Shown: piece by piece, positions 19,606-25,772 of the stretch
Numbering within the stretch: the stretch's first letter is position 1
How the letters are laid out: each line of letters starts with the position of its first letter
DNA from: Selaginella moellendorffii
Lineage: Eukaryota; Plantae; Lycopodiophyta
Direction: 5' to 3'
DNA: 64,000 nucleotides
Assembly (NCBI RefSeq): GCF_000143415.4
Contig: NW_003314277.1
Span: 2,199,193-2,263,192 of the forward strand
The notes under the pieces: model-generated
Database searches by the model: none
Seen by the model: only the letters and a program-made list of their open reading frames with translations
Told to the model about the DNA's origin: nothing
Program-made: the position numbers and the translations under genes

Positions 19606-21435
19606 ATGAAGATCTTGCAGTCCGTCACGAGGGCTTCCCTCCGCCACGACCAGCTCCTCGAGGAGCTGCGATGCGCGGCGATCAAGCCCAATCTCTCGCA
19701 GACCAAGCGGCTCCACGACCAGATCCTCCCCAATGCTCGCATCCGCCAGAAGCCCTTCCTCCTCAACCGGCTGATCTACCTGTATGGCAAATGCGGCGCG
19801 CTCGATCAGGCCTGGGAGGTATTCGTGAACAAGTACCAGAGAGATTCCTTCTCCTGGAACTTGATCATCGCGGCCTACGCAGAGAATGGAAGATTAGAGA
19901 GAGCGAGGGAAGTTTTCGACAAGATGGACGAGCCAGATGTGGTTACCTGGACGACGATGCTCCGCGCCTACGCCCAAGCCGGGCAGATCGCCGAGGCGCG
20001 GCGGCTCTTCGATCGCATCTCCTCGCCCGACACCGTCGCCTACAACACGATCATCGCGGCCTACGTCCACGCCAGGGAGCTGGATCAGGCCCGGCAGCTC
20101 TTCGATCGGATGGAGAAGAAGAGCATCTGTACCTGGAATTCGATGATCGCGGCCTATTCCCAGCTCGGGGATCTTGAAATATCAAGATCCATGTTCGATG
20201 CGATGCCGCGGCGCAGCGTAATCACCTGGAACTCGCTCGTCACGGCCTACGCTCGATCCGGCGAGCTGGATGCCGCGGACAGCCTCTTCGATCGGATGCC
20301 GCAGCGCGACGTCGTCTCCTGGACCGCGATGCTCGCCGCAAATACCCTAGCCGGGAACCTCGATCGCCTCCGCGCGCTCTTCGATGCGATGCCCGAGCGC
20401 AATGCCGTGTCGTGGAACTCGATGATCTCGGCGCACACGCACCGCGCGCGGCCGGACGACGCGCAGGATTTCTTCGATCGAATGCCAATGCACACAACCC
20501 TAGCCTGGAACACGCTCCTCTCCGCGCACGCCCAGGCCGGCAACGTAGAGGGCGTGGAGTGGATATTCCACCGCATCCCAGAGAAGAACTCCCTCTCCTA
20601 CACCGCCATGGTCCGGGCATATTCCCAGAACAATTTGCTAGCGCAGGCGCGTCGCGTGTTCGATTCCATGCCCCAATTCGACACCGTCTCAGCAAATGCC
20701 CTTCTTACCGCAAATGCCATAATGGGGGATCTAGAGTCAGCAAAGCGTATCTTCGCCCGGATTCCCTTCCCAAGCCCCGCGGCGTGCACGACCATGATCA
20801 CTGCATATTCCCAGCAAGGGAATATCCGGCAGGCAAAGATCCTCTTTGACTCCCTGCCCGAGCCGGACGTGGTATCTTGGACCGCGATGGCCGCGGCATA
20901 TGCCGACAACGGGAACATCCTCGAGGCGAAGCGGATATTCGACGCCCAGCCAGTCCGGGATCGCATCTCGTGGACGGCGATGGCTGCCGCGTTCGCGAGC
21001 AATGGCTTCGCGCGAGAGGCGATCCATCTCGTGTGGATCATCAGCCTGGAGGGGCTCAGGGCGGACGAGGCGGCATTCTCGAGCGTGCTGAGCGCCGCGA
21101 GCCGGGTGGGGCGATTGGAGGACGCGATCGAGTTCTTCGTCTCCATGATCGGCGATCACGGGCTCGCCCCAATTCGCGAGCACTACTGCTGCGTCGTGGA
21201 TGCGCTCGCGCGCGCTGGGCGATTGGCCGATGCCGAGGAGCTCGTCGAGAGCATGCCATTCCTCCCCGGAGACACCGCTTGGGGATCGCTGCTCACGGCG
21301 TCTAGGACCCAGCGCGATCTGGATCGCGGCGAGAGATCCAGTGGAGAGATGGGCGATCTAGATCCCAGCAATGCCGCACCCCTCAAGGCCATGTTTAATA
21401 TATACAAGGAGAAAGATCATCACCATCTCTCATAA
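19606..21435 (+). CDS. PLS-class pentatricopeptide repeat protein with E domain, no DYW (609 aa, intronless)
   Basis: Tandem ~31-aa repeats (VVSWTAMLAA..G.L..AR.LFD.MP); HYCCVVDALARAGRL..A and MPFLPGDTAWGSLL E motif. Confidence 0.95.
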   Translation: MKILQSVTRASLRHDQLLEELRCAAIKPNLSQTKRLHDQILPNARIRQKPFLLNRLIYLYGKCGALDQAWEVFVNKYQRDSFSWNLIIAAYAENGRLERAREVFDKMDEPDVVTWTTMLRAYAQAGQIAEARRLFDRISSPDTVAYNTIIAAYVHARELDQARQLFDRMEKKSICTWNSMIAAYSQLGDLEISRSMFDAMPRRSVITWNSLVTAYARSGELDAADSLFDRMPQRDVVSWTAMLAANTLAGNLDRLRALFDAMPERNAVSWNSMISAHTHRARPDDAQDFFDRMPMHTTLAWNTLLSAHAQAGNVEGVEWIFHRIPEKNSLSYTAMVRAYSQNNLLAQARRVFDSMPQFDTVSANALLTANAIMGDLESAKRIFARIPFPSPAACTTMITAYSQQGNIRQAKILFDSLPEPDVVSWTAMAAAYADNGNILEAKRIFDAQPVRDRISWTAMAAAFASNGFAREAIHLVWIISLEGLRADEAAFSSVLSAASRVGRLEDAIEFFVSMIGDHGLAPIREHYCCVVDALARAGRLADAEELVESMPFLPGDTAWGSLLTASRTQRDLDRGERSSGEMGDLDPSNAAPLKAMFNIYKEKDHHHLS

Positions 21436-21477
21436 TCAATGCTTCTTCTTTGACACAAAGGAGTGATACCTTTTCTA

Positions 21478-23499
21478 TCACTCCCTGTAGTTGTAAAGCC
21501 TGTGGGATTTCACGTATTCGATCACGCCATCGTGAACTAGATACTTCACCGACAGTGCCCTCTCGAAGCTTTGCCTGCGAAGAAAGAAAACGAGAGATTT
21601 TAGAGACAAAAGAGTGATTTTTCTTCACCTGACGATTGTGGAGCTTACGCCGATCTGTGCCATGTCTTCCATAGCCAGGATGTTTCTCTGCAAAATCTCC
21701 GGAGAACACAAAACCATGACAAGAGAATGAGAAGACTGCTGGGAGCTTACTCGGTGTCTGTGCAAAGTCTCGTTTTGGAAGACGACTTTGTCGATGCTTT
21801 GTCCGTCCCTGCTGAGACAGACGATCCCGTAGTCTCGACAGATTCGCTCTACGTGATCCGGGATCCAAATGCTTGCGTCTTCCAAAGTTGCGAGGAGATC
21901 AACTCCGCAAAGCAGCATTATCCTTACGGTTCCTGCGTAGCGTGACAGACGTTTACTTCAGTTCCTTGAAACGCAAAAAGAATCTATCAGTCGCTGACCT
22001 TCAGTGATCATTCCCCCATTGATACAGTGATCTACTCTAGCTAGAACATCGACAGTTCGTTGACGTGTTGGTTGCCTCGCCTAAAGGAAACTTAAGCGTC
22101 AAGATGAGAAGACCAAAGAAAAAAAAAACCATTTTTTTACCTCCCAGCTATCAACCATGATGAATGGCGAGTCTGCTGTAGAGATTTGACACATTTGTAT
22201 TCTATGCTCAGCTAGAGCCAGCCCCTGGAAGACGAAAAGCGAGTTAAGTAACATCGATGTTTGGAGAAGAACCTACAGGCTTTGCATATCCGTCGTGAAC
22301 AGGAGACATATAACCGCCGAGTACACTATATCCCTCCGACATCAAACGGTTCCTGGCGAGCTCTATAGAAAACGAAAAACCGAATGTAAGTTCCTGGCGA
22401 GCTCTCTAGAAAATGAAACAAAAAAAGTGAATGTAAACTACGAATGCCTGGAAAGACATACCAAACATTCGAAGATGCATGATCGTCGGAGGATTGAAGC
22501 TTCCGGTGGCAACGAGAATGACACCCGGTCTCCTGGCAAAACCAACAAAACCCAGCTGCTAAGAGCGATCAAAAAGAGACTGAAACTCTCACCGCAAAGA
22601 GCCATCCAAGTTTCGTATCAGCTGGCTCCCGAGCTTGTCCAAGCAGATTGGAACATCGACATGACCTGCAAATCTTATAAGCAGAATGAACCGAATGAAA
22701 ACGAACGAAAAAAACGAAAGAAAAGCGAAAAAAAAGAAAGAAATGGAAGAACTCGCAACGTACTTAGAGCCATCTCAAACCGAGACAAGGAACTGCTGCT
22801 AGAGTTCCCAGCAACCGTGGAGTTCCCAGCCATGGTGGAGTTGCCATTCCCGGGAGCTCCATTTGGATCCAAGCACCGCGCCCTCCTTCCATTCCTATCC
22901 CCGAGAAACTCCGCCATGCTCTCAAACAACTGGACTCTAAACGTCGCCGGGAGCTCCTTGGCCTTGGTCTTCTCCTTCTTAAGAACATCGTCCAGCTCCC
23001 AGTAGCTGGGATGCCCGATCTTCTTGTTCCACTCCACGATTTGCTTGTAGGCCGTCAAGAGATTCGACCACTTTCGCTCGATCTCCTTGGGCTGCCGATC
23101 CACGCCCATCGGCAGCAGCAAATTCCTCACCTCGGTCCACTTCTCGTTGGCGGATTTGAAGACGTGCTTGCCATTCTTCCCGGCCAGGAGGAGCTTCATG
23201 TGGACTTGCTTGTAAGCGCTTACCAGGGCGTCCATCTCCGAGTCCTGCCACATCTCCGCCCGCTTCTTCTTGCTGCCTACGCTCTCCGTCTTGTCGATCT
23301 CGTCGCCGCCGAGCCCCTCCTCCATCGCTGCCGGATGATGCTGGTGATGCTGCTGCTGGTGATTGCCCGCCGCCCCCAAATCCCTGGAGAAGCTGCCCAG
23401 GCTCACGGATGGATCCTCCAGATCGGCGGGATCGAATGCGGCGACGCTGGCCTCCTCCGAGGGCGCGAACTTCAGCGGGCTGGGAAGCATACCCGCCAT
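21478..23499 (-). CDS. NMNAT: Trihelix (SH4/ASR3-like Myb/SANT) DNA-binding domain fused to nicotinamide/nicotinate mononucleotide adenylyltransferase; 9 exons, 489 aa
   Basis: Exons 23499-22764, 22665-22593, 22532-22462, 22362-22277, 22224-22141, 22080-21999, 21932-21751, 21687-21629, 21574-21478 sum to 1470 nt, all GT-AG and in frame; trihelix W..KW..R..KWSNL..YK..EW..SYW..LP motif plus NMNAT GSFNPPTIMHLRMFE, GGYMSPV, VDSWE, VSSTIVR, SVKYL. Confidence 0.88.
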
Positions 23500-23738
23500 A
23501 GCTCGGAGCTTCGGGGAAAAAACCCTAAAAGAAGAAATATTTTGCTTTGTGGGGTTTAACGGGAATCGAGCCCAGAACAAAGCAATCCTGACGTGGTCAT
23601 CGACGTGGCAGGAATTCTGACCTGGCATTATGCACGTCCCAGATTCTGCCACGTGTCTGAGTAACTAGAGATCTCTAGAGCCTTCTTTTCTTCCCATTTA
23701 AATGCCGGAGAGAGCTACTGGGTGAGTATCCAAGAACA
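23500..23738. promoter_or_regulatory. Divergent promoter with telo-box, G-box/ABRE-like elements and an imperfect heat-shock element
   Basis: AAACCCTAA at 23521; TGACGTGG, CGACGTGG, GCCACGTGTC; GAGatCTCtaGAGccTTC at ~23668-23685. Confidence 0.55.
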
Positions 23739-24561
23739 ATGGCTTTGGTGTTTAATCCTCTAGCTCTATGCGCTCCTCCAGCGATTACTAGGGTTTGTTC
23801 TCGGCCAGGCAATCGCAGCTCCAGCGCCAGGCCCTGCGCTCGCGATAGGCGATTGCGCGTTAGAGCGTCGGCAGCGCCGGATCAAAACAGCATCAAGATC
23901 CAGCAGCAGCAATCCTCGCCCCAGCAGCTCCAGAGAACGAATGGATCCTCTTCCCCTCCCCAGCAGCAACAGCAGCAGCAAAGGCCGTCGATGGCATCGA
24001 GAAGACAATCCTCGCCCCTCTCGCCGCTGGGTAAGAATCTCCGATCGAAATCTCTCTCCCGGAGTGATTCTTAGAAATCGCGAATGTCTCTCTCTCTTCA
24101 CAGATTTGTGGGATCCATTCATGCCGGCGTCCAGGAGCTTCGGCCAGATGCTCGACGCGATGAATCAAGTGCTGGAGACTGGAGCGATGCCGACGCCGGC
24201 GCCATCGATGCTGCCCACGATCCAGCGCCGGAGCTCCGGGCGATTGCCGTGGGACGTGATGGAGGACGAGGAGGCCTTTAGGATGCGCGTGGACATGCCC
24301 GGGCTCGCCAGGGACGAGGTGAAGGTATCGATCGTGGACGATGGCTTCTTGCTCATCAAGGGCGAGACGAGCAAGGAGAGGAAGGAAGGGGGCGACAAAT
24401 GGGCGGCGCGAAGCGTGGGGTCTTACGAGTCGAGGGTGATGATCCCGGACAATGTGGAGGTGGACAAGATCACGGCGGAGCTGAAAGACGGCGTGCTCTA
24501 CGTGACGGTGCCCAAGAAGAAGATTGAGGCCAAGAAACCCGTCGAGATTCAGGTGTCCTAG
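23739..24561 (+). CDS. HSP21: Plastid small heat shock protein (HSP21-like), 2 exons (intron ~24031-24102)
   Basis: Transit-peptide-like N-terminus; DPFMPASRSFGQMLDAMNQV Met-rich region; RLPWDV, RVDMPGL, AELKDGVLYVTVPK alpha-crystallin domain. Confidence 0.9.
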
Positions 24562-25772
24562 GGTTTAGGGTTTTATTCAGGGCATGCTTTAGCATGGGTT
24601 TAGGGTTTACGCAAATACAATAAACCCTAAATTTGCTCGCCAACGAGATCTGTCAACTTCTCCACAGTGCTTCTTTTTCTCAGTAAGTAAAGTCAGGCTT
24701 TGAATTATCATTGTGGTTTGGTTTTCGATAGAATTTGAACTGTTCATATCAGAAAGTAAAATACTGGAGTTTGGTTAAAGTCTGGTTCATATTTTTCACA
24801 AGAACGAAAGGGTTTTAGTTGTGGGTGGTTTTTGTTTATGTCGTTGTATCATCACCCTGTATCATCGCCTTGTGGTTCGGTGATAAAACGATGCGAGAGC
24901 GACAAAATACCCCCTCTGTTTTTGACTGTAAGGACTTGGTTGTGGATCACTGATCTCAGAACTGCAGGGGAATCTTGAGGACACTGATATGGTAATATAT
25001 CATATCAGCCGTGTTTGACTTGTACATCGATCCCTGCTGCTCTTGGGAACGCGAAATTGCTGCCTTGGCATGTGTTTTAGCACAGTCTTTTACAGTTGAT
25101 TGGATAGTATTTGTGTGCAGGGTCTAGAGCAGGCGTACATGTCAATGGTGGGCAGATTCAGGGACCACAGCAAGCACTTCATTGCAGTCATCTTCGACAA
25201 AGCTGCTCATCGCATGCAAAGGGTGGAAGGAGTAACTGTGTTCCCAGGCTACTTTGAGCCGGCCCTTTAGCATCTTGTTGTCTGAAATACATCCTCTACT
25301 GCTTGTCGTATTGCTTTGCAGAGAACGGAGAACGTCAATCCCCAGAACCGTCAGCTGAGTATTCTGTGTGTTTGGATATACAATAGCCTCTTGACGAGGG
25401 TGAGATCATGTGTTCTTCATCTCTTTCCATGGAGAAGAACGGTACTTTAGACCACCTTGTTCTTTAAGAAGGTCCAATAAGGAGGGAGTGAATTCCTTGA
25501 GAAGAACAAGTTGTCTAGGAGAAAAGAGGATTGAACTAAGAACTTTGGAGTGGATGGCGACCTTGAGCTTATTCTTGGTAGTAAGAAGTTGCTCGACTAA
25601 GGCCTTGCACTACTAATTGAGGGCGAGGATCTCTGTGTCACAAGCATGGAGTTTGTCCTCGTCGAAAAGCTAAAAAGCTGTGAAAGTGGGAGTAGTCTGG
25701 TCCTTAACTAAAGAGGCCGGACTGACTACAAAGGGGAGGTGTAATTCATGCCGCATGAACTTCATACAAATA

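What the first reader, a model, noticed from the sequence alone, without database searches (positions are those of the whole stretch)
21478..23499. Trihelix transcription-factor domain fused in frame to a complete NMNAT (NAD+ synthesis enzyme)
Seen: the 245-aa trihelix exon ends CTA A|GTACGT (22764) and splices via a canonical phase-1 intron into S-H-V-D-V-P-I-C-L-D-K-L, which matches the MDVPLP..KL start of plant NMNAT but has no in-frame Met. Seven more canonical introns keep frame, giving 489 aa with intact GSFNPPTxMH, W and SST motifs and a KKKR NLS-like stretch. Known: angiosperm NMNAT is a stand-alone ~240-aa enzyme; animal NMNAT1 is recruited to promoters to supply SIRT1/PARP1; other trihelix-enzyme fusions exist in plants (amino-acid-kinase family, RNase J). 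Inference: a DNA-targeted NAD+ source for chromatin sirtuin/PARP activity, or a metabolite-sensing TF. I do not know this architecture as described.
Basis: partly seen in the sequence, partly recalled or inferred. Interest (0 to 1): 0.9.

Follow-up and report, generated by a model that had tools for sequence, protein, structure and literature searches.

The report
Ancient plant trihelix–NMNAT fusion protein
In this spikemoss, and in mosses, liverworts and gymnosperms, one spliced gene joins a predicted NAD-making enzyme (NMNAT) to a very conserved transcription-factor-type domain that likely tethers NAD synthesis to DNA, an apparently undescribed arrangement that flowering plants likely lost.

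Summary
Confirmed. The minus-strand gene has nine exons and encodes 489 aa. RNA-like contigs splice the trihelix exon to NMNAT exon 2 in 3 of 4 runs laid; the fourth retains that intron. My model equals RefSeq XP_024531671.1 (Selaginella moellendorffii, 'uncharacterized') letter for letter. The same two-domain protein occurs in liverworts, mosses (four Physcomitrium loci) and gymnosperms, and partly in a gene model of the alga Spirogloea. The trihelix is more conserved (78% mean identity) than the enzyme (62%). Stand-alone angiosperm NMNATs are sister to gymnosperm fusions, so flowering plants likely lost the trihelix; a gymnosperm paralog lineage kept the trihelix and degraded or dropped the enzyme. 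Core catalytic motifs are intact. 'KKKR' is the start of the trihelix, not separate NLS evidence. Best reading: a DNA-tethered NMNAT supplying NAD(+)/NaAD at chromatin (0.45). Rivals: a NadR-like NAD-sensing regulator (0.25), or uncoupled functions (0.25). DNA binding, catalysis and localisation are untested. Ten literature searches found no description, and this scan had not noted it elsewhere.

The parts
22764..23499 (-). Exon 1 (aa 1-245): variable N-terminus, trihelix domain, disordered linker
   Evidence: 100% identical to P0020/P0195
22900..23271 (-). Extended trihelix (Myb/SANT-like, PF13837) domain, aa 77-200; W84, W121, W144 invariant; further helices at 171-177 and 185-199
   Evidence: Pfam; 53 invariant residues in 18 fusions, mean pairwise identity 77.9%; AF2 helices
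22764..22899 (-). Gly/Ser/Asn-rich linker, aa 201-245, predicted disordered
   Evidence: pLDDT under 50 at 203-244; 33% mean identity
22666..22763 (-). Intron 1 (98 nt, phase 1), the fusion junction; partly retained. Retention gives a 274-aa trihelix-only ORF ending at a stop inside the intron
   Evidence: spliced in 3 of 4 runs, retained in the X4 contig and one X1 contig; 274-aa product
22593..22665 (-). Exon 2: start of NMNAT (HVDVP..., no Met)
22462..22532 (-). Exon 3: GSFNPPT and T286-x-x-H289 ATP-binding/catalytic motif
22277..22362 (-). Exon 4 (NMNAT; includes K321)
22141..22224 (-). Exon 5 (NMNAT)
21999..22080 (-). Exon 6 (NMNAT; R356 where other plants have Y/F)
21751..21932 (-). Exon 7 (NMNAT; CGxDLL, W400)
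21629..21687 (-). Exon 8 (NMNAT; SST of the S453-x4-R458 motif)
21478..21574 (-). Exon 9 (NMNAT C-terminus and stop)

Best explanation
This is one spliced gene encoding a two-domain protein, conserved from liverworts to conifers, in which a trihelix domain predicted to bind DNA likely tethers a predicted-active NMN/NaMN adenylyltransferase to chromatin, where it would supply NAD(+) or its precursor NaAD to nearby NAD-consuming enzymes. Shown here: gene structure, splicing across the junction, the two domains, intact catalytic motifs, wide conservation, and stronger conservation of the trihelix than of the enzyme. Inferred from trees: the fusion is the ancestral land-plant NMNAT, probably older than land plants, and it split both ways later. 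Flowering plants kept only the enzyme, probably starting at a Met already present just after the junction in gymnosperms. One gymnosperm paralog kept the trihelix. Inferred and untested: nuclear location, sequence-specific DNA binding, catalysis, and that SRT1/PARP-type enzymes are the beneficiaries. The long variable linker suggests a tether rather than a tightly coupled sensor. Retention of intron 1 would switch output to a trihelix-only or unstable transcript.
For: Splicing across the junction in 3 of 4 runs; RefSeq model identical to mine. 16 of 19 longer homologues carry both PF13837 and PF01467, named from Marchantia, Calypogeia, Riccia, Physcomitrium, Sphagnum, Taxus, Cryptomeria and Ginkgo; four Physcomitrium loci are all fused. 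Trihelix 77.9% versus NMNAT 61.7% mean pairwise identity over 18 fusions; net basic domain; W84/W121/W144 invariant. H289 in 18/18, K321 17/18, W400 17/18, S453 16/18, R458 16/18; TIGR00482 144 bits, above the cut-off of 112; NMNAT domain model matches Arabidopsis NaMNAT 9rpm at TM 0.94 by target length. Disordered linker and whole-model pTM 0.57. Rooted tree: 7 angiosperm stand-alone enzymes sister to 3 gymnosperm fusions at 100/99; AU test rejects a fusions-only clade, p=0.012. Spirogloea model P0233 starts with the C-terminal half of this trihelix (24.3 bits, E 2e-7 among 140 proteins; next unrelated hit E 0.81), then NMNAT. Marchantia orthologue MpTrihelix8 is expressed in every tissue table that lists it (PMC6174852 supplement rows). 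Human NMNAT1 is nuclear and binding to it raises PARP1 activity (PMC12470169 passages).
Against: No experiment on any member. The Arabidopsis enzyme prefers NaMN, NAD synthetase is placed in the cytosol and NAD+ passes freely through nuclear pores (PMC12178909 passages); plants are described as using the four-step salvage route, not NAMPT (PMC2936527 passages). A local NAD+ loop is therefore not obviously closed. Angiosperms manage without the tether: none of 120 short NMNATs has a trihelix hit. The Ginkgo paralog Gb_30853 has a degraded enzyme (below the TIGR00482 cut-off, W400 missing) and its Cryptomeria sister is trihelix-only, so the trihelix has value without catalysis. The lycophyte Diphasiastrum is annotated with a 270-aa form lacking the trihelix. 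Selaginella's enzyme is fast-evolving: it differs at 19 of 102 conserved columns and has R356 for the usual aromatic residue. The structural match of the trihelix to GT-1 is weak (E 0.39; Z 5.6). Intron 1 is retained in some contigs, and no protein-level evidence was seen.
Confidence: 0.45

Rival explanations
1. NadR-like sensor. The NMNAT domain reads NAD/NaMN/ATP status, and ligand binding or oligomer change switches DNA binding by the trihelix, so the protein regulates NAD-synthesis or stress genes by feedback.
For: Bacterial NadR regulates nadA and nadB and has NMNAT activity (PMC2936527 passage). The trihelix is under stronger constraint than the enzyme. Fusions with altered motifs persist (Physcomitrium P0016; Ginkgo P0018), as expected if binding matters more than turnover. 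All four Physcomitrium copies are retained fused.
Against: The linker varies in length and sequence (33% identity) and is predicted disordered, and the single-chain model has low global confidence. A trihelix-only paralog persists in Cryptomeria. No target genes are known.
Confidence: 0.25
2. Two uncoupled jobs in one chain. An ancient read-through or exon capture joined a trihelix factor to the housekeeping NMNAT. Each domain does its own job, with the trihelix as a transcription factor, chromatin-complex adaptor or nuclear anchor, and the link is kept only because both halves are needed and share one promoter.
For: Fission happened in both directions. The junction is exactly intron 1. PF13837 is also found fused to unrelated enzymes: RNase J in plants, PAICS and NAD(P)HX dehydratase in chordate-dominated clusters. 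Intron-1 retention gives a separate trihelix-only ORF.
Against: The fusion has been kept in liverworts, mosses, a lycophyte and gymnosperms, and in all four moss duplicates, where splitting the two jobs between copies was possible.
Confidence: 0.25
3. Annotation or assembly artefact: two adjacent genes joined by occasional read-through splicing, with NMNAT normally made from its own start.
For: The older annotation split the locus into EFJ36716 (trihelix) and EFJ36717 (partial NMNAT). One of four runs shows only the intron-retained form. Contigs are not single molecules.
Against: No in-frame Met before M288, which lies inside the catalytic motif. Junction spliced in three studies. Same architecture and junction position in 16 of 19 longer homologues from distant lineages.
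Confidence: 0.03

Closest known systems
Arabidopsis NaMN/NMN adenylyltransferase (PDB 9rpk/9rpm) and angiosperm NMNATs
   Same: Orthologous enzyme domain: phmmer E 1e-70, TM 0.94, sister to gymnosperm fusions.
   Different: Stand-alone, about 240-250 aa, no trihelix (0 of 120 short hits); described as acting in the cytosolic pathway.
Trihelix GT factors, WWW type (GT-1 and SH4 clades; PDB 2jmw/2ebi)
   Same: PF13837 above cut-off; three invariant Trp; same KKRAExW start as GT-1; GT-1 is the best PDB hit by sequence (E 0.0013) and by Foldseek.
   Different: Longer helix 1 and a conserved extension after helix 3, which resembles SH4/ASR3-type proteins from recall only. The C-terminal part is an enzyme, not a coiled coil. 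No angiosperm protein of this subfamily was among the 37 hits.
Enterobacterial NadR
   Same: A transcription regulator carrying NMNAT activity in one chain (PMC2936527 passage).
   Different: NadR's HTH plus ribosylnicotinamide-kinase architecture is recalled. Here Pfam finds only a trihelix and a eukaryote-type NMNAT. Convergent at most.
Human nuclear NMNAT1 working with PARP1/SIRT1
   Same: Homologous enzyme (E 1e-41); nuclear NAD supply and PARP1 binding.
   Different: NMNAT1 has no DNA-binding domain and uses an internal NLS; its promoter recruitment by partner proteins is recalled, not checked. It is fed NMN by NAMPT, a route not described for plants.
Other trihelix/Myb-SANT-enzyme fusions (plant RNase J; a rice trihelix-kinase chimera; chordate PAICS and NAXD clusters)
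   Same: The same Pfam domain is attached to an enzyme (PMC4195496 passage).
   Different: Different enzymes; none is NMNAT.

Membership tests
Eukaryotic NMN/NaMN adenylyltransferase (NMNAT) | (H/T)xxH catalytic motif | tested here: met
   T286-x-x-H289; H289 in 18/18 fusions; definition from PMC12470169 section 3
Eukaryotic NMN/NaMN adenylyltransferase (NMNAT) | SxxxxR ATP-binding motif and the W169-equivalent Trp | tested here: met
   S453...R458 and W400 align to human NMNAT1
Eukaryotic NMN/NaMN adenylyltransferase (NMNAT) | Family profile and nucleotidyltransferase fold | tested here: met
   PF01467 48.3 over 21; TIGR00482 144 over 112; TM 0.94 to 9rpm
Animal-type NMNAT | WxxT NMN-binding motif (animal-specific per the review) | tested here: not met
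   R356 at that position; Y/F in 118 of 120 short plant enzymes and 14 of 18 fusions
Eukaryotic NMN/NaMN adenylyltransferase (NMNAT) | Adenylyl transfer to NMN/NaMN | not testable with these tools
   needs an enzyme assay
Trihelix (GT factor) | PF13837 domain above the curated cut-off | tested here: met
   39.9 bits versus 27
Trihelix (GT factor), WWW type | Conserved Trp at each of three helices | tested here: met
   W84, W121, W144 invariant in 18/18; definition from PMC6747514 passages
Trihelix (GT factor) | Structural match to the solved GT-1 domain | tested here: inconclusive
   Foldseek top hit 2ebi, probability 0.96 but E 0.39; VIA Z 5.6, rank 5
GT-1 clade versus SH4 clade | Fourth helix (F/Y)(F/Y)xx(L/I/M)xx(L/I/M) (GT-1) or extended helix 3 without it (SH4) | tested here: inconclusive
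   No exact motif read from the sequence; long helix 3 (137-159) plus two further helices; no tree with named clade members was built
Trihelix (GT factor) | Sequence-specific binding to GT elements | not testable with these tools
   needs DAP-seq or EMSA
NadR | HTH + NMNAT + ribosylnicotinamide kinase architecture (recalled) | tested here: not met
   Pfam finds only PF13837 and PF01467
NadR | NAD-dependent repression of NAD-synthesis genes | not testable with these tools
   no binding or target data
Harbinger-transposon-derived Myb/SANT proteins | Descent from a PIF/Harbinger DNA-binding ORF (recalled idea) | not tested
   no transposon comparison was run

The most novel reading that the evidence does not exclude
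Non-flowering plants have a eukaryotic counterpart of NadR: their main NMNAT is itself a sequence-specific transcription factor that makes and senses NAD at its target promoters. This circuit arose in the algal sister group of land plants, and flowering plants dismantled it by dropping the trihelix exon.
Probability: 0.25. Interest if true: 0.92.

Novelty: new variant of a known kind. Interest (0 to 1): 0.76.

Why it matters
NMNAT is the step every NAD route passes through, and plant knowledge of it rests on the stand-alone Arabidopsis enzyme. These data suggest that enzyme is the derived form, and that most land-plant lineages carry NMNAT fused to a DNA-binding-type domain more conserved than the enzyme itself. 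If the domain binds DNA, this would be a hard-wired link between NAD metabolism and chromatin in a eukaryote. It makes the open question of local nuclear NAD supply in plants directly testable in Marchantia (MpTRIHELIX8, Mapoly0011s0011), where the two domains can be split or mutated separately. It also adds a metabolic-regulatory change at the origin of flowering plants.

Tried and rejected
No whole genome is held, so a second canonical NMNAT in Selaginella could not be excluded directly; cluster look-ups show only this locus in two records each. My first exon-4 acceptor (22360) broke the frame; the contigs gave 22362. No listed holder run is on record as RNA; only 4 of 24 listed runs were laid. 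The Atlas search with full-length P0017 gave no usable hit. Complex prediction of the trihelix against the NMNAT domain was not available, so there is no verdict. Spirogloea P0370 has no trihelix (ADH-containing chimeric model); it was mislabelled as fused in the tree, and the tree was redone with P0233. A note that only gymnosperms have Met before D(V/I)P was corrected: 6 of 6 main-clade gymnosperm fusions, 1 of 12 others. No match to the heat-shock-element pattern was found in the shared promoter. KKKR as an independent NLS was rejected. Literature: trihelix+NMNAT 0 papers; trihelix+CTP_transf 0; trihelix+adenylyltransferase 19 listings, none on this by title or abstract; searches listed nothing on it; the gene identifiers were in no main text. 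The supplements of PMC11132968 and PMC4195496 could not be read and may list the gene or its domains. No fern or hornwort name appeared among the hits; that is not evidence of absence.

Full report
Observation. The minus strand carries a nine-exon gene from 23499 to 21478. All eight introns are GT-AG, and the product is 489 aa. Intron 1 (22763-22666) is phase 1 and links the 245-aa trihelix exon to HVDVPICLDKL. The three ATGs in intron 1 and exon 2 are out of frame, and the first in-frame Met after the junction is M288, inside the catalytic motif. I laid contigs of 4 of the 24 listed runs, from 4 studies; their RNA status is the tool's guess, but they lack GT-AG introns. Introns 2-8 are skipped in 4 of 4 runs and intron 1 in 3 of 4 (X2 and X6 with 72 letters on the short side; X1 with 28, under the tool's 31-letter rule). 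X2 and X6 each have one contig running from upstream of the ATG into NMNAT exons. X4's contig and a 156-nt X1 contig keep intron 1. Contigs are not single molecules, and no protein evidence was seen.

Identity. Exon 1 is 100% identical to SELMODRAFT_451611 of Selaginella moellendorffii. That older annotation split the locus into EFJ36716 and a Met-less partial NMNAT, EFJ36717. RefSeq XP_024531671.1/XP_024535719.1 ('uncharacterized', P0195) equals my model letter for letter, and the 274-aa intron-retained product is also in the collection. P0195 passes the cut-offs for PF13837 (83-169), PF01467 (278-459) and TIGR00482. The fusion is thus in databases but unnamed.

Distribution. Of 19 longer homologues of exon 1, 16 carry both Pfam domains. 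Named ones come from Marchantia, Calypogeia, Riccia, Physcomitrium, Sphagnum, Taxus, Cryptomeria and Ginkgo. Two more (Picea P0002, and P0012) run into the NMNAT start before diverging, and one ends at the linker. The 18 near-length hits are the Selaginella split model, a Cryptomeria trihelix-only protein and mostly ORFs that end around the linker. No named angiosperm is among these 37. Physcomitrium has four loci, all fused. The best 120 of 757 short NMNAT hits were listed: 100 carry a name, of which 99 are flowering plants and one is the lycophyte Diphasiastrum; none of the 120 hits my trihelix profile. Among 140 new representatives from the profile search, two hit the trihelix profile: an unnamed trihelix-only ORF (P0262) and Spirogloea muscicola SM000175S03278 (P0233). 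The latter begins inside the trihelix (profile 73-121, 24.3 bits, E 2e-7; next hit E 0.81) and continues into NMNAT. That model is truncated, so an origin before land plants is likely but not shown. The named chlorophyte NMNATs (Bryopsis, Micractinium, Asterochloris) have no trihelix hit, and the Chlamydomonas enzyme is described with Gly/Pro/Gln-rich extra sequence only (PMC2936527 passages). Ferns and hornworts are unresolved.

History. In an NMNAT-domain tree of 31 rows rooted on four unnamed distant representatives, 7 angiosperm enzymes (100/100) are sister to 3 main-clade gymnosperm fusions (100/99). The AU test rejects a fusions-only clade (p=0.012; 0.027 with Diphasiastrum included). 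A 37-row mixture-model tree shows the same split. Caveats: I had seen earlier trees before running the test, one search used LG+G4, and Selaginella is a long branch. The simplest reading is one gain and later losses, in angiosperms and perhaps in Diphasiastrum (whose short model may just be truncated). A Met sits just before D(V/I)P in 6 of 6 main-clade gymnosperm fusions, 1 of 12 other fusions and 92 of 120 short enzymes, which suggests a ready-made start for the stand-alone enzyme (inference). The opposite fission also occurred: Ginkgo Gb_30853 has a degraded NMNAT (altered GSFN motif, no W400, below the TIGR00482 cut-off) and groups 100/100 with a trihelix-only Cryptomeria gene.

Anatomy. 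Over 18 fusions the mean pairwise identity is 27.9% for the N-terminus, 77.9% for aa 77-200, 33.3% for the linker and 61.7% for NMNAT. Fifty-three trihelix residues are invariant, including W84, W121 and W144, the WWW pattern of the GT-1 and SH4 clades (PMC6747514 passages). GT-1 is the best PDB match by sequence (E 0.0013) and by Foldseek (probability 0.96, E 0.39), but VIA gives only Z 5.6, so structure alone is inconclusive. KKKR is the start of this domain. AlphaFold gives two folded domains joined by a disordered linker (pTM 0.57). The enzyme domain matches Arabidopsis NaMNAT at TM 0.94 and keeps T286xxH289, K321, W400 and S453xxxxR458 (motif definitions from PMC12470169 section 3). Against this, the Selaginella copy differs at 19 of 102 otherwise conserved columns and has R356 where 118 of 120 short enzymes have Y/F, so its activity or substrate choice needs testing.

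Mechanism. I commit to a tether: the trihelix binds DNA or chromatin and holds an active NMNAT there, supplying NAD(+) or NaAD to nearby consumers (0.45). The enzyme motifs, the extreme conservation and basic charge of the trihelix, the flexible linker and the broad expression of the Marchantia orthologue fit this (Mapoly0011s0011 = MpTrihelix8 in PMC6174852 supplement rows; P0193 has both domains). Human NMNAT1 binding raises PARP1 activity; its recruitment to promoters is recalled only. The main weakness is chemical. The Arabidopsis enzyme prefers NaMN, the final amidation is placed in the cytosol, and NAD+ crosses nuclear pores freely (PMC12178909 passages), so local NAD+ supply needs nuclear NMN or nuclear NAD synthetase. 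The NadR-like sensor reading (0.25) has a real precedent, a regulator of nadA/nadB with NMNAT activity (PMC2936527 passage), but the variable linker argues against tight coupling. Uncoupled functions (0.25) fit the two-way fissions and the recurrence of PF13837 on unrelated enzymes, but not the long retention of the fusion, including in all four moss duplicates. An artefact is very unlikely (0.03).

Novelty. Ten searches of the held library gave no paper describing the architecture, judged from listings and abstract starts. The trihelix family survey that includes Selaginella and Physcomitrella has no 'nicotin', 'NMN' or 'transferase' in its main text (PMC4195496), and PMC6174852 lists the gene only as a transcription factor. 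I read passages or named sections only, never whole papers; PMC1249556 and PMC13036487 gave one passage each and added little. Two supplements were unreadable, and most subscription journals are not held, including any paper on PDB 9rpk. Earlier findings of this scan show no look-alike. Both domains are known families and NadR is a functional precedent, so I rate it a new variant of a known kind, interest 0.76.

Noticed in passing
window 23500-23738 and 23739-24564 (+): A small heat-shock protein gene (PF00011) lies head-to-head with the fusion, with about 240 bp between the first ATGs. Three CCACGT (G-box/ABRE-like) cores fall within 23591-23654; no match to the HSE pattern there.
   Followed up: partly
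window 19606-21435 (+): An intronless PPR gene (609 aa) ends tail-to-tail 43 bp from the fusion's stop; contigs of both overlap around 21420-21450.
   Followed up: no
window 22666-22763: Intron 1 alone is retained in otherwise spliced contigs (X4, part of X1), giving a 274-aa trihelix-only ORF with a Phe-rich tail; possibly a regulated switch.
   Followed up: partly
P0018 (Ginkgo Gb_30853), P0031/P0212 (Cryptomeria LOC131038844), P0262/P0371 (unnamed): A second paralog lineage in which the NMNAT half is degraded or absent while the trihelix is kept.
   Followed up: partly
P0284 (unnamed Logan protein, 384 aa): An HTH_psq DNA-binding domain precedes an NMNAT domain; a single record, possibly an independent DNA-binding-domain/NMNAT fusion or a chimera.
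   Followed up: no
Atlas rows 4 and 6: PF13837 fused to PAICS (130 members) and to ATP-dependent NAD(P)HX dehydratase (64 members) in mostly chordate clusters.
   Followed up: no
P0232 (unnamed Logan protein, 397 aa): Plant-like NMNAT with a transit-peptide-like N-terminus and no trihelix; weakly placed outside the chlorophyte plus land-plant group. Several chlorophyte NMNATs have similar N-termini by eye.
   Followed up: partly
P0002 (Picea sitchensis cDNA protein): Trihelix plus the first NMNAT exons spliced into a hAT transposase dimerisation domain.
   Followed up: no
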